NCBI RefSeq assembly: GCF_000026545.1
Contig: NC_011601.1
Reading direction: 5' to 3' (one strand)
From: Escherichia coli O127:H6 str. E2348/69
GTDB lineage: Bacteria; Pseudomonadota; Gammaproteobacteria; Enterobacterales; Enterobacteriaceae
DNA: 64,000 bases
The first letter of the stretch is position 1, and each line of letters opens with the position of its first letter. The position numbers were made by a program. Shown one piece after another: positions 59,801 through 62,800 of this stretch.

Positions 59801-62800
59801 GCTGCGCCTTGCGTCTGCCGTTCTGGATCACTGCCACCGAACCGGGCGCGTGCGTGCTGTGGTGCATCGTTCTGCTAACGCTGCTGAGGGAGGCCGCTAC
59901 GTTGGGCGGACGTGTGGTGTTAGCGTTACGAATCTAAGGGCTATGATTGGCAGCTATCGCAAGCAATACACTGGTATTGGCATGTTATATCCATAACTGC
60001 GGGGTAATAAACCCCGCCGAAATAGTAGCGTAGCCACTCAAACAGGAATGTTGTAGTAATGACAAATTGCATTAGTTAGTAGAGCTGGTGCAGCAGACGC
60101 TGCAATATTTAGCGTCCCCGCATATGCTTTACCAATCATATTTACAACCCACTTCCCAAGGCTATCACTGAAATTGTCCGGGGTAGTTGGGGCGGGTGAT
60201 TCTTGTATAGCTTGATGAAGGCTCTTAATATCTTCATCATTAGCGCCCCAATCCTTGAGCTGCTTTTCAAGCGAGTTGAAGTCTCCAGCGTTGACAGTAT
60301 TATTTTGTGAAATGTCCCCGTTACCAGAGCCAATAACGCCAGCATTGTTTACGTTGCCATGAATGTTGGTCACGTTATGGACAGTCATTGGCGCTACCTC
60401 TTTTTCTCTTAATGAAAACTGTAACCCTTCGCCTAAAATACCCTTTGACTCTAAGTCTAAAGACCAGTCGAGGATCTTATTCCTAACGGTAGTAATTACA
60501 TGTTCTAGTACACCAGCGCTTATAACCCATACCATCTCAGTCTTTTGTCCGATACTTTGAGCTAATGTATCAGCCATCCAATCCGGGAGAGGTAAAAAAG
60601 GGTTTTCTCCTTTATTGCTCATCTTTTTTATAGATGATATTGATTCTGTAATGTGAAACGTTGATACCATTGCATTTAATTCCGCGTCGTTGAAGTTGAC
60701 CACAAGCGGAACCCAGCTCTGATGTTGGGGACTATATGCTTTTAACTGCGATTGACCTTTCCTGTATTCAGGAACCGTATCAAAGCTGGGATAGCCATTT
60801 AATTCGAGCTGTATCCACTCGGTCAAATCGCTGAGGCCGAGCTTCACTGCAATCATTTTGGCCTTCATGAGTACAGATAAAATGTCGGAGTCGGGATCGC
60901 ACGCTAGTGCTTGAAGTTCAAGAACTGGTGAGTTAGCCATATCAAGACCTTAGTATTGTTTTGATAAGGTATCTTACCCGCATCGAACCATGCAGTCTAA
61001 GGTTCGCAGGCCAAACTCACCCATGAGTTAGATGTTTATTCCTTCATGCTGGATGAGTTCGACATACTTACCGATCTCTATAGGGGAAGCTGCATTTTTC
61101 GAGTAAGTTTTGAAGCTCTCTGTACTCCCGCGCTCATGACCGACGAGCAGGGCAATACGATCTTCTGGCACTTGAGCACGGTCGAGCTGTTGCACAAAAG
61201 CATGGCGGAGTGAGTGAAACACTTTTCTCTCTGCGGCAGGCTCGCCAAGAGCTTTACGCTTTGCTCGCGTGAATTGCTGCGTATGCCACGTTGAGCGCTT
61301 CCCATCGGCCCGGTCTGTTATTGATGCGTGATAGAACAGAAAACCGCTATGTGTGGTCTTGAGCAATGACTTCACGAGAGGGATTATCTTGCTGTGTACA
61401 GGGACGATTCGCGCCGCGCTCTTAGTCTTCCCCTCGGTGATCTCAAAGCACAATATACCCTCGATAGTTTTAATACTGCTTTCACGTAGCGTACATATCT
61501 CATTGATCCGCATACCGCTGTATGCACCAATAGCCGTTACCGCCTTCATCTCGTCATCAAGCAAGGCATAGACCTTTGCCAGCTCTCCCGGTGCGAAGAC
61601 TTCATAGCTGACCTTGCTGCTTTTTGCTTCGAGCGCATGACCGCGCCAAGGATTGTCCTGTGGTGCATCGTGATAGCGATTGCGTGCCAGATCCCATATC
61701 TGCGCCAGTGCGCTTATATAGTTTTGGATAGTTTGGGGCGCTCGCTCAGTTTTGAGCTTATCTAACCAGCCTGTAACTATGGTTCGGTTAATATCCCGCA
61801 ACTGAACATCTTTCTTTTTCAAGTGGGTTAACAGCACCTCTACGGCTTTGTTGGTCTTGGATAACGTGGTTAGCTTTCGCTTCTCGCTGTATTGAAGCAG
61901 GTACAAATCACGCATTTTTAGCAAGGAAGGGCAAGCCTGAATCGATGCACCAAACGATGCGGGGGCTTCCTTGGCGTACACACTGACACGGCGTAGCTCA
62001 TCAATGATTTGGTCTACAGATGAGCCGCCTTGTGGCTTTAGCAGATTCCGTAAGCGAGTCCATTCCAGAGCAATAGCATCTCGAAACAATCGCGCTTGGC
62101 GTATGTCTCGTGTTCCTGTGCTTTTCATAAAGTAGCGCTTCCCTTGGAACAGGTGGCGCATATAGCTGGGAATAGCTATCCGCACGAGGTAATTCCCGCA
62201 GGGATCTAAAACTAGATAACGATCTCTCTTGAAACTCATACAAACCCCGGTTATGTTGTCGGGGCTTTTTCATGGCTAAACAGTCTGTGAAATGTGCCGG
62301 GGTCATGAGCTTTAGTCTAGCTAGTTCAACAAGTTAACGATGATTGTTGAAGCAAGCTAAGTCGCTATAACCCGTGCCGGTTCGAGTCCGGCCTTCGGCA
62401 CCACATCGTATGCAAATCGAGTCGCTCAAGGGCGGCTTTTTTTGTGTCTGGGATCCATTAGTTACCTATCTTTCTCGCTATTTTAACTCTCTCAGAGCCA
62501 ACCAATTTCAACCCATCGCAAACGAAAAATGTTGGTACAGGCGTTGGTATTTTCGGTTCGATATTAATTTGTATTAGCTCAGTCCTGATCTGACAGCTAT
62601 CTGCCAGATCAGGTTCGGATTAATACATTATATCTGCCCGCCTACACCTTTAAACTTCTCAATAAACGCGACGATCTTCTGGAAAACCGTCTGTTTTTTC
62701 GTCTTATATTGCGGGTTTAACGGACTGAGTTTTGGCAATGTCTCGTTTAATTCCGTGCCATTTTCGGTGGCGTATTCGCGTTTTAAAGACGTGCGAATAT

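What the first reader, a model, noticed from the sequence alone, without database searches (positions are those of the whole stretch)
61028..62403. Integrase at the distal end next to the partial tRNA repeat
The tyrosine integrase is transcribed inward from within about 130 bp of the 31-bp repeat, while the intact tRNA is about 15 kb away at the other end. The island 3' end at the tRNA junction therefore supplies the functional tRNA 3' terminus. This defines the att core and predicts the excision junctions.
Basis: seen in the sequence. Interest (0 to 1): 0.35.

Follow-up and report, generated by a model that had tools for sequence, protein, structure and literature searches.

The report
Integrase-bounded leuX island with exact ends
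A 15-kb mobile island sits in the leuX tRNA-Leu gene of E. coli E2348/69, with its integrase at the far end and its ends confirmed exactly by island-free strains; the integration module is ordinary, but the island looks like an undescribed phage-satellite type.

Summary
The window is E. coli O127:H6 E2348/69. An intact tRNA-Leu(CAA) gene (leuX, 47258-47342) shares its last 31 bp exactly with 62373-62403. A 403-aa tyrosine integrase (61028-62239, minus strand) starts 133 bp from the distal copy and reads inward. Joining the two outer flanks in silico gives a sequence found uninterrupted in 204 complete E. coli genomes, so the predicted empty site (attB) exists in nature and the ends are exact to the base. 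The integrase has all six catalytic residues and is under strong purifying selection (dN/dS about 0.1). It occurs at 95-99% identity in several enterobacterial genera. Relatives at 56%, 51% and 37% identity show the same layout at tRNA-Thr and tRNA-Gly genes, so the distal, inward position is a trait of this integrase clade. Excision was not shown: no circular junction (attP) turned up in three public collections, and no excisionase was identified. This is a standard tRNA-targeting integration module. The island itself is more interesting. It carries a capsid gene 56% identical to that of virulent Autographiviridae phages, two nucleases, a RecQ-like helicase and two variable slots, one holding the abortive-infection gene AbiTii. 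It resembles a phage satellite that I could not find described.

The parts
47258..47342 (+). Intact tRNA-Leu(CAA) gene (leuX). Its last 31 bp form the attL identity block.
   Evidence: ARAGORN; Rfam tRNA 59.4 bits; identical to the tRNA at the empty site in ET201.
47312..47342 (+). attL core: 3 nt of the variable region, the T arm (GCCGG-TTCGAGT-CCGGC), the 3' acceptor strand and ACCA.
   Evidence: Exact 31-mer present twice in the window. Parsing of the tRNA arms is read from the sequence.
47343..62403 (.). The integrated island: 15,061 bp counting one core copy, 15,030 bp between the repeats.
   Evidence: Absent, precisely between these coordinates, from 204 E. coli genomes.
47343..47800 (.). 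Conserved non-coding left end, the P' side of attP. The block at about 47560-47790 is shared with related islands at other tRNAs.
   Evidence: 96-100% identical in family members. Present in about 620 genomes. 85% similar to an island at the tRNA-Gly gene and partly similar to one at tRNA-Thr. No Rfam or phage match.
47801..50177 (.). Variable region 1, low G+C. Holds ORFs 47860-48408 (+) and 49160-49852 (-).
   Evidence: Not aligned with family members KFu019 and S1. G+C 0.43-0.44. Relatives carry other genes here, such as AbiJ.
50315..50884 (+). Small serine recombinase (resolvase/invertase type, 189 aa).
   Evidence: Pfam Resolvase 8e-37 plus HTH_7; PHROG DNA invertase.
52150..53994 (+). 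RecQ-like DEAD/DEAH helicase (614 aa), the probable replication function.
   Evidence: Pfam DEAD and Helicase_C; NCBIfam recQ_fam 6e-41; PADLOC DpdF model 1.9e-277.
54466..54675 (+). 69-aa ORF with weak similarity to T7-type small terminase.
   Evidence: Pfam PF11123 E=3e-4, below the curated cut-off. tblastn to the phage Lidtsur small terminase gene, E=0.036. Weak evidence.
57350..58345 (+). Major capsid protein homologue (331 aa).
   Evidence: PHROG 267 major head protein 3e-64. 56% identical over 98% of its length to the capsid of Bonnellvirus phages, family Autographiviridae.
58362..58871 (+). HNH endonuclease (169 aa).
   Evidence: Pfam HNH_3 2e-18; PHROG 99.
59571..59996 (+). Endonuclease VII-like protein (141 aa).
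   Evidence: Pfam Endonuclease_7; PHROG 423, 1.4e-15.
60038..60940 (-). AbiTii abortive-infection protein. It occupies variable region 2 (about 59895-61075).
   Evidence: Pfam AbiTii 4e-44; PADLOC AbiTii 2e-48. Relatives carry a type II restriction-modification system, TIR or DUF3800 genes here instead.
61028..62239 (-). Tyrosine integrase (403 aa) at the tRNA-distal end, reading inward.
   Evidence: Pfam PF00589 and DUF6538. Catalytic residues R244, K271, H342, R345, H368, Y379. dN/dS 0.09-0.11.
62240..62372 (.). P arm of attP and the integrase upstream region (133 bp).
   Evidence: 62240-62292 is invariant in three diverged family members, while the 80 bp next to the core vary. No consensus sigma-70 promoter on the integrase strand.
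62373..62403 (+). attR core: the displaced 3' fragment of leuX.
   Evidence: Exact copy of 47312-47342. Logan contigs from independent samples end exactly here.
62419..62446 (+). Native leuX terminator hairpin and T-run, left behind at attR.
   Evidence: Terminator scan. It follows the tRNA directly in the empty-site strain ET201.

Best explanation
A 15-kb integrative element entered the leuX tRNA-Leu(CAA) gene by tyrosine-integrase site-specific recombination between its attP and the 3' part of the tRNA gene. The element carries a 30-31 bp copy of the tRNA 3' end, so integration rebuilds a complete tRNA at the left junction (attL, 47312-47342). The chromosome's own 3' end, with its terminator, is pushed to the right junction (attR, 62373-62403). 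The integrase gene lies on the attR side, starts 133 bp from the core and reads into the island. In the circular form it would be transcribed away from attP, in the opposite sense to the tRNA-like core. Strand exchange is inferred to occur in the 7-nt T-loop TTCGAGT, which is flanked by the perfectly inverted T-stem arms GCCGG and CCGGC. That is the usual design of a core site for a tyrosine recombinase. Excision would restore ...CGGCACCA|CATCGTATGC... (attB) and create ...GCTATAACC-core-AGTCACTAAATT... (attP). Shown here: the repeats, the integrase family and catalytic residues, the exact ends, repeated independent integrations, and the same geometry in distant relatives. Inferred: the crossover position, present-day activity, and how the integrase gene is expressed.
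For: Two exact 31-bp copies, none expected by chance. The integrase domain and residues R244, K271, H342, R345, H368, Y379 are present. The empty attB is uninterrupted in 204 genomes and aligns base for base. The native terminator sits at attR. About 55 of 5,426 complete E. coli genomes carry the integrase plus attR. Those inspected have the same layout at leuX but different right-hand neighbours. E2348/69 has the native hsdR flank. KFu019, S1 and Kosakonia have another island in tandem. In YD786 and Nissle 1917 a different island later integrated in front of a remnant of this one. These are therefore independent integration events. The integrase is under purifying selection, dN/dS 0.09-0.11. 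It is 95-99% identical across Escherichia, Enterobacter, Citrobacter, Cronobacter, Klebsiella and Trabulsiella. Relatives at 56%, 51% and 37% identity sit 55-140 bp from a displaced tRNA-Thr or tRNA-Gly 3' fragment and read inward, with the intact tRNA at the far end.
Against: No attP junction was found in viral, genome or metagenome collections. No excisionase or AlpA-like protein was detected by Pfam or PHROGs. No arm-type repeats exceed chance. No consensus promoter lies upstream of the integrase gene. Remnants of the island's left end (about 620 genomes) are about ten times commoner than intact copies, so decay is frequent. All three E2348/69 assemblies retain the island.
Confidence: 0.85

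Rival explanations
1. The structure is a fossil. The element integrated as described but is now fixed in E2348/69 and no longer excises, for example because it lacks a directionality factor or integrase expression.
For: No attP junction in any collection searched. No excisionase identified. No recognisable integrase promoter. Many decayed remnants elsewhere. The island is present in all three E2348/69 assemblies.
Against: Both att cores are intact and identical. The integrase ORF is intact with all catalytic residues. dN/dS is about 0.1. Near-identical integrases occur in several genera. The conserved backbone has no IS insertions in this copy.
Confidence: 0.25
2. The true mobile unit has different ends. 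It is composite or larger, for example including the downstream hsdRSM/mcrBC restriction region, or it is bounded by another repeat.
For: The downstream region is itself a variable restriction-gene cluster of low G+C. Tandem arrays are common at leuX.
Against: 204 genomes have tRNA-Leu joined directly to this same hsdR flank with no island. There is no other copy of the core in the window, and none in 49.7 kb downstream. Family members end at the same bases.
Confidence: 0.03
3. The small serine recombinase (50315-50884), not the tyrosine integrase, is responsible for integration.
For: A second recombinase gene is conserved in the backbone.
Against: At 189 aa it is of resolvase/invertase size, not a large serine integrase. 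Only tyrosine-family integrases are known to target tRNA genes (PMC4383910). Relatives that share only the tyrosine integrase keep the same tRNA-fragment geometry. The islands at tRNA-Thr and tRNA-Gly carry a small tyrosine-recombinase-like gene at the equivalent position instead.
Confidence: 0.02

Closest known systems
P4-type integrases and islands at leuX (satellite phage P4, the K-12 KpLE2 element with intB, PAI II of strain 536)
   Same: They use the same target gene and the same part of it (T arm to 3' end). They are tyrosine integrases. The tRNA 3' end is duplicated as attL and attR, and the island rebuilds the tRNA. Tandem partners of this kind follow attR in KFu019 and S1.
   Different: The tandem partner at the tRNA-Gly site (L017) is a P4-type integrase with an Arm-DNA-bind_3 N-terminus, lying downstream of the tRNA fragment and co-directional with it. 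The integrases of the partner islands in KFu019 and S1 and of the island next to leuX in YD786 and Nissle 1917 hold the same proximal, co-directional position; their domains were not examined. Here the integrase has a DUF6538 N-terminus, lies at the distal end and reads towards the tRNA. No P4 genes (sid, psu, delta, alpha) were detected. That P4 uses leuX is from my own knowledge, not tested here.
Gram-negative phage-inducible chromosomal islands (GN-PICIs, e.g. EcCICFT073)
   Same: They are 10-20 kb, integrase-bounded and often sit in tRNA genes. They often carry a major capsid gene, present in 21 of 29 reference PICIs (PMC10111431). They have few other phage genes.
   Different: No alpA and no primase were detected. 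The integrase is at the opposite end and convergent with the main operon, rather than leading it. The capsid here is Autographiviridae-type, not lambda E-type.
Islander-type tRNA genomic islands (Williams laboratory definition)
   Same: All criteria are met: an intact tRNA gene, a co-oriented displaced 3' fragment downstream, and a tyrosine integrase inside (PMC4383910).
   Different: None. This is a textbook instance.
Satellites of virulent phages (PLE of Vibrio cholerae with phage ICP1)
   Same: A small integrated island with nucleases and a replication helicase. Its capsid gene is related to that of strictly lytic phages, which suggests a lytic helper.
   Different: No sequence relationship was tested or seen, and helper dependence is entirely inferred. 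The comparison comes from my own knowledge.

Membership tests
Tyrosine recombinase / phage integrase family | C-terminal catalytic domain (Pfam PF00589) | tested here: met
   E=1.3e-16, 61.3 bits against a cut-off of 27.1, residues 230-379. PHROG 1 integrase 2.9e-35.
Tyrosine recombinase / phage integrase family | Catalytic residues R-K-H-x-x-R-H/W-Y | tested here: met
   R244, K271, H342, R345, H368 and Y379, located by alignment to the XerA structures 4a8e and 5hxy and by motif positions. The Tyr is offset by 2-4 residues in the alignments.
Tyrosine recombinase / phage integrase family | Arm-binding N-terminal domain with matching arm sites in attP (heterobivalent integrases) | tested here: inconclusive
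   An N-terminal DUF6538 domain is present, but no repeated arm-type motifs exceed chance in the reconstructed attP.
Tyrosine recombinase / phage integrase family | Catalyses attP x attB recombination | not testable with these tools
   The only evidence is indirect: independent integrations and natural empty sites.
tRNA-integrated genomic island (Islander criteria) | Intact tRNA gene plus a co-oriented displaced 3' fragment downstream, with an integrase between them | tested here: met
   Criteria as stated in PMC4383910.
tRNA-integrated genomic island (Islander criteria) | Uninterrupted attB in related genomes that matches the predicted junction | tested here: met
   204 genomes; base-for-base alignment with ET201.
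Gram-negative PICI | alpA regulator/excisionase next to the integrase gene | tested here: not met
   No Phage_AlpA or HTH_17 hit in any island ORF. The gene next to the integrase is variable cargo.
Gram-negative PICI | Primase/replication initiator (pri-rep) | tested here: not met
   No primase domain was found. A RecQ-like helicase is present instead, and its 260 N-terminal residues are unassigned.
Gram-negative PICI | 10-20 kb size with few phage late genes, often a capsid gene | tested here: met
   15 kb. A capsid homologue is the only clear structural gene. Definition from PMC10111431.
Gram-negative PICI | Induction and packaging by a helper phage | not testable with these tools
   No experimental data. 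No attP or virion-derived contig was found.
P4-like satellite | P4-type integrase plus sid, psu, delta and alpha genes | tested here: not met
   The integrase lacks the P4-type arm-binding domain. No PHROG or Pfam hit to P4 genes.
Capsid-forming PICI (cfPICI) | Full head module (portal, protease, capsid, connectors, terminase small subunit) | tested here: not met
   Only a capsid homologue and a doubtful 69-aa small-terminase-like ORF were found.

The most novel reading that the evidence does not exclude
This integrase clade (DUF6538 N-terminus, gene at the tRNA-distal end reading inward) may mark an undescribed superfamily of roughly 14-16 kb phage satellites in Enterobacteriaceae. These islands target leuX, thrW or glyU. 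Each carries a capsid gene drawn from a different phage lineage. They share a conserved non-coding block at the tRNA-proximal end, and they hold swappable anti-phage cargo. The leuX member carries a capsid of the Autographiviridae (Bonnellvirus) type, a possible T7-type small terminase, and two nucleases. It would then be a satellite that exploits strictly virulent T7-like coliphages, an E. coli counterpart of the Vibrio PLE/ICP1 system.
Probability: 0.3. Interest if true: 0.7.

Novelty: new member of a known kind. Interest (0 to 1): 0.33.

Why it matters
As an integration module this is routine, but it is now mapped to the base. That gives ready-made primers and junction sequences for attB and attP. 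It also provides a leuX-specific integrase that differs from the P4 type and could coexist with it, which is useful for tandem or orthogonal chromosomal insertion. The wider point concerns the island it mobilises. It is found in about 1% of complete E. coli genomes and in several other genera. It carries interchangeable defence genes and a capsid gene related to virulent T7-like phages. If it is a satellite of lytic phages, it would affect phage-therapy outcomes and extend satellite biology in E. coli beyond temperate helpers.

Tried and rejected
(1) A degenerate full-length tRNA in attP. The 27 nt upstream of the attR core, and a GCCGGGG stretch that could pair with the acceptor strand, looked tRNA-like. 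The local alignment score (11) was below the shuffle mean of 12.9, p=0.88, so I rejected it.

(2) Arm-type integrase binding repeats in the reconstructed attP. Nothing exceeded shuffled controls.

(3) A hairpin that could sequester the integrase ribosome-binding site (62245-62264). The fold z-score was only -1.26, so I make no claim.

(4) In-silico 'PCR' for the attP circle in IMG/VR, GTDB genomes and JGI metagenomes. There were no hits.

(5) Island-length (14.5-15.4 kb) Logan contigs carrying the integrase looked like excised circles. They all end exactly at the core, which is the expected assembly-graph break at a repeated 31-mer. They are not evidence of excision.

(6) My first impression that the island occurs in 747 genomes was wrong. 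Only about 55 carry the integrase plus attR. Most of the other hits are the 454-bp left-end remnant.

(7) Phage RNA-polymerase promoter repeats in phage Lidtsur, to look for them in the island. No usable consensus emerged.

(8) The left-end block as a cos or pac site shared with a helper phage. It has no match in 50,697 phage records.

(9) Rfam gave no family other than the tRNA.

(10) The E2348/69 genome paper (PMC2612414) is not in the held library. I could not check whether it already names this island as an integrative element.

(11) Four literature searches for a description of this satellite type found none, and two further keyword searches returned papers that do not describe it.

Full report
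**Observation.** The window is 100% identical to E. coli O127:H6 strain E2348/69 around ahr and leuX.
- ARAGORN finds a single tRNA, tRNA-Leu(CAA), at 47258-47342 on the + strand. Rfam agrees.
- Its last 31 bp, CGTGCCGGTTCGAGTCCGGCCTTCGGCACCA, recur exactly at 62373-62403 on the same strand, 15,061 bp away.
- No third copy exists in the window even with three mismatches, and shuffles gave none.
- A 25-nt version finds no other copy in the window, and only the attR copy in a 49.7-kb stretch that starts just upstream of it.
- ORF 61028-62239 (minus strand, 403 aa) matches Pfam Phage_integrase at E=1.3e-16 and has an N-terminal DUF6538 domain.
- Its ATG lies 133 bp from the repeat, and it reads towards the tRNA.

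**Are the repeats real island ends?** I joined 46943-47342 to 62404-62803 in silico and searched 5,426 complete E. coli genomes.
- 204 genomes contain this junction as one uninterrupted piece, at 98-99.6% identity among the hits listed, annotated ahr, tRNA-Leu, hsdR.
- Strain ET201 aligns as attL-left + core + attR-right. It departs from attL immediately after CACCA and from attR immediately before CGTGCC.
- A terminator hairpin with a T-run follows attR (62419-62446) and follows the tRNA directly in ET201.

So attR carries the chromosome's original 3' flank. That conclusion follows from the repeat geometry, not from where the integrase lies.

**Is the integrase plausible as the agent?**
- Alignment to the XerA structures and motif positions give R244, K271, H342, R345, H368 and Y379.
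- Against two diverged family members, dN/dS is 0.09-0.11.
- Homologues at 95-99% amino-acid identity occur in Escherichia, Enterobacter, Citrobacter, Cronobacter, Klebsiella and Trabulsiella.
- About 55 of 5,426 complete E. coli genomes carry the integrase plus attR. Those inspected have the same layout at leuX.
- The right-hand neighbour differs between hosts. E2348/69 has the native hsdR flank. KFu019, S1 and a Kosakonia genome have a second island whose own integrase follows attR.
- In YD786 and Nissle 1917 the order is reversed. A 7.3-kb island with a 636-aa integrase lies next to the tRNA. It is followed by a 25-bp leuX fragment and then the 454-bp left end of this family, truncated by IS elements.

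These are independent integration events into the same site.

**Crossover (inferred).** The core parses as 3 nt of variable region, the T stem GCCGG, the T loop TTCGAGT, the T stem CCGGC, the acceptor strand CTTCGGC, and ACCA. Two perfectly inverted 5-bp arms around a 7-bp spacer is the standard core-site design for a tyrosine recombinase. I therefore place strand exchange in the T loop. The rest of the identity block would exist to rebuild the tRNA. In S1 the block is 30 bp, because its first base differs. The 31 bp is thus an upper bound, not the functional core.

**Is the distal, inward position unusual?** At this same locus the other islands show the opposite arrangement, with the integrase immediately downstream of the tRNA or fragment and co-directional with it. 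The arrangement here is nonetheless a stable trait of this integrase clade.
- An exhaustive search found full-length relatives at 56%, 51%, 47% and 37% identity.
- The 56% and 51% relatives start about 115-140 bp from a displaced tRNA-Thr(CGU) 3' fragment in divergent orientation.
- For the tRNA-Thr type, the intact tRNA was seen at the far end in a second sample (L018).
- The 37% relative (L017) starts about 55 bp from a 3' fragment that I read as tRNA-Gly.
- A tRNA-Gly island in E. coli 2017-03-3CC shows the whole geometry in one complete genome. It was located through the same tRNA-Gly fragment, and its integrase was not compared directly with the query.
- Only the integrase is shared at BLAST level with the three relatives compared. 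All are islands of about 14-16 kb, and the tRNA-Thr islands and the tRNA-Gly island in 2017-03-3CC have an identified capsid gene.

**What was not shown.**
- No attP junction was found in IMG/VR, GTDB genomes or JGI metagenomes.
- Island-length Logan contigs end exactly at the core. That is the expected assembly-graph break at a repeated 31-mer, not evidence of circles.
- No excisionase, arm-site repeats or integrase promoter were identified.
- A conserved hairpin just upstream of the integrase ATG is not statistically distinctive.

Present-day excision therefore remains an inference. I put the fossil alternative at about 0.25.

**The island itself.**
- Conserved backbone: 47343-47800, 50178-59894 and 61076-62403.
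- Variable, lower-G+C slots: 47801-50177 and 59895-61075. The second holds AbiTii here. Relatives carry a type II restriction-modification system, TIR or DUF3800 genes instead.
- Backbone genes: a small serine recombinase, a RecQ-like helicase, about ten small ORFs with no confident family match, an HNH endonuclease and an endonuclease VII.
- Capsid: a 331-aa major capsid homologue, 56% identical to that of Bonnellvirus phages (Autographiviridae, virulent, about 42 kb).
- A 69-aa ORF weakly resembles T7-type small terminase.
- No portal, protease, large terminase, alpA or primase was found.

Gram-negative PICIs often carry a capsid gene (PMC10111431). This island is therefore PICI-like, but it fails two PICI criteria (alpA and primase). 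Searches of the held literature found no description of it.

**Verdict.** The finding is correct and well supported, and it is an ordinary example of tRNA-targeted integration. What is new here is modest:
- the ends are verified exactly;
- this integrase clade is distinct from the P4-type integrases found at the same and related tRNA sites;
- its distal, inward geometry is conserved across three tRNA targets.

The larger open question is whether the cargo is a new satellite type that exploits virulent T7-like phages.

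Noticed in passing
window 57350-58345 (also 54466-54675, 58362-58871, 59571-59996): The island's capsid gene is 56% identical to the major capsid of virulent Autographiviridae of genus Bonnellvirus (Lidtsur, forsur, glasur). A 69-aa ORF weakly resembles T7-type small terminase, and two nucleases follow the capsid gene. This suggests a satellite of lytic T7-like phages. I found no published description.
   Followed up: partly
window 47343-47800; L020 18160-18672; L018 8400-8952: The 454-bp non-coding left end is present in about 620 E. coli genomes, far more than the roughly 55 with the integrase. Its block at about 47560-47790 is 85% similar to the tRNA-proximal end of an island at the tRNA-Gly gene. 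It partly matches an island at tRNA-Thr, sharing the motif CGTCGAGATGACG..GCAGGGGATAAACAGG...CCTGATAAG. It has no Rfam or phage match, and three sequences are too few to judge covariation.
   Followed up: partly
L007 (YD786) 1602-9454; L006 (Nissle 1917): In many strains, including Nissle 1917, a 7.3-kb island with a 636-aa integrase lies next to leuX. It is followed by a 25-bp leuX fragment and then an IS-truncated remnant of this island family. This is a tandem array that records the order of integration.
   Followed up: yes
window 47801-50177 and 59895-61075: There are two variable, low-G+C cargo slots. The one next to the integrase holds AbiTii here, and a type II restriction-modification system, a TIR-domain gene or a DUF3800 gene in relatives. 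It behaves as a defence-gene hotspot.
   Followed up: partly
window 52150-53994: The RecQ-like helicase matches one PADLOC 'DpdF' model at E=1.9e-277 over the model's full length, yet no other Dpd genes are in the island. That PADLOC model was probably built from helicases of this island family rather than from true Dpd systems.
   Followed up: no
window 50315-50884; L015 20650-21210; L020 15404-15961: The leuX island has a small serine recombinase. The related tRNA-Thr and tRNA-Gly islands have a 186-aa tyrosine-recombinase-like gene at the same relative position. Its role is unknown; it could resolve multimers, act as a regulator, or set the direction of recombination.
   Followed up: no
window 62419-62446 and 47343-47420: The native leuX terminator stays at attR, so the rebuilt tRNA at attL has lost it. 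No terminator-like hairpin was found on the tRNA strand in the first 650 bp of the island. tRNA 3' processing or read-through into the island may therefore differ in island carriers.
   Followed up: no
Logan contigs L008, L010, L011, L012, L014: Independent short-read assemblies break exactly at the 31-bp core. The integrase always starts at contig position 164 for the leuX type and 146 for the tRNA-Thr type. This gives island-length contigs that mimic excised circles.
   Followed up: yes
window 62628-63935 and downstream (L019): Directly beyond attR lies a cluster of restriction genes: type I hsdRSM, mcrBC, a phosphorothioate-dependent endonuclease and an HNH gene. Core genes (nan, fim) follow. 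This is the E. coli 'immigration control' region abutting leuX.
   Followed up: partly
plasmid NZ_CP182204.1 (hit H116): A 240-kb plasmid of strain JB2 carries a partial copy (66% of the query, 90% identity) of this integrase gene. This is the only non-chromosomal context seen.
   Followed up: no
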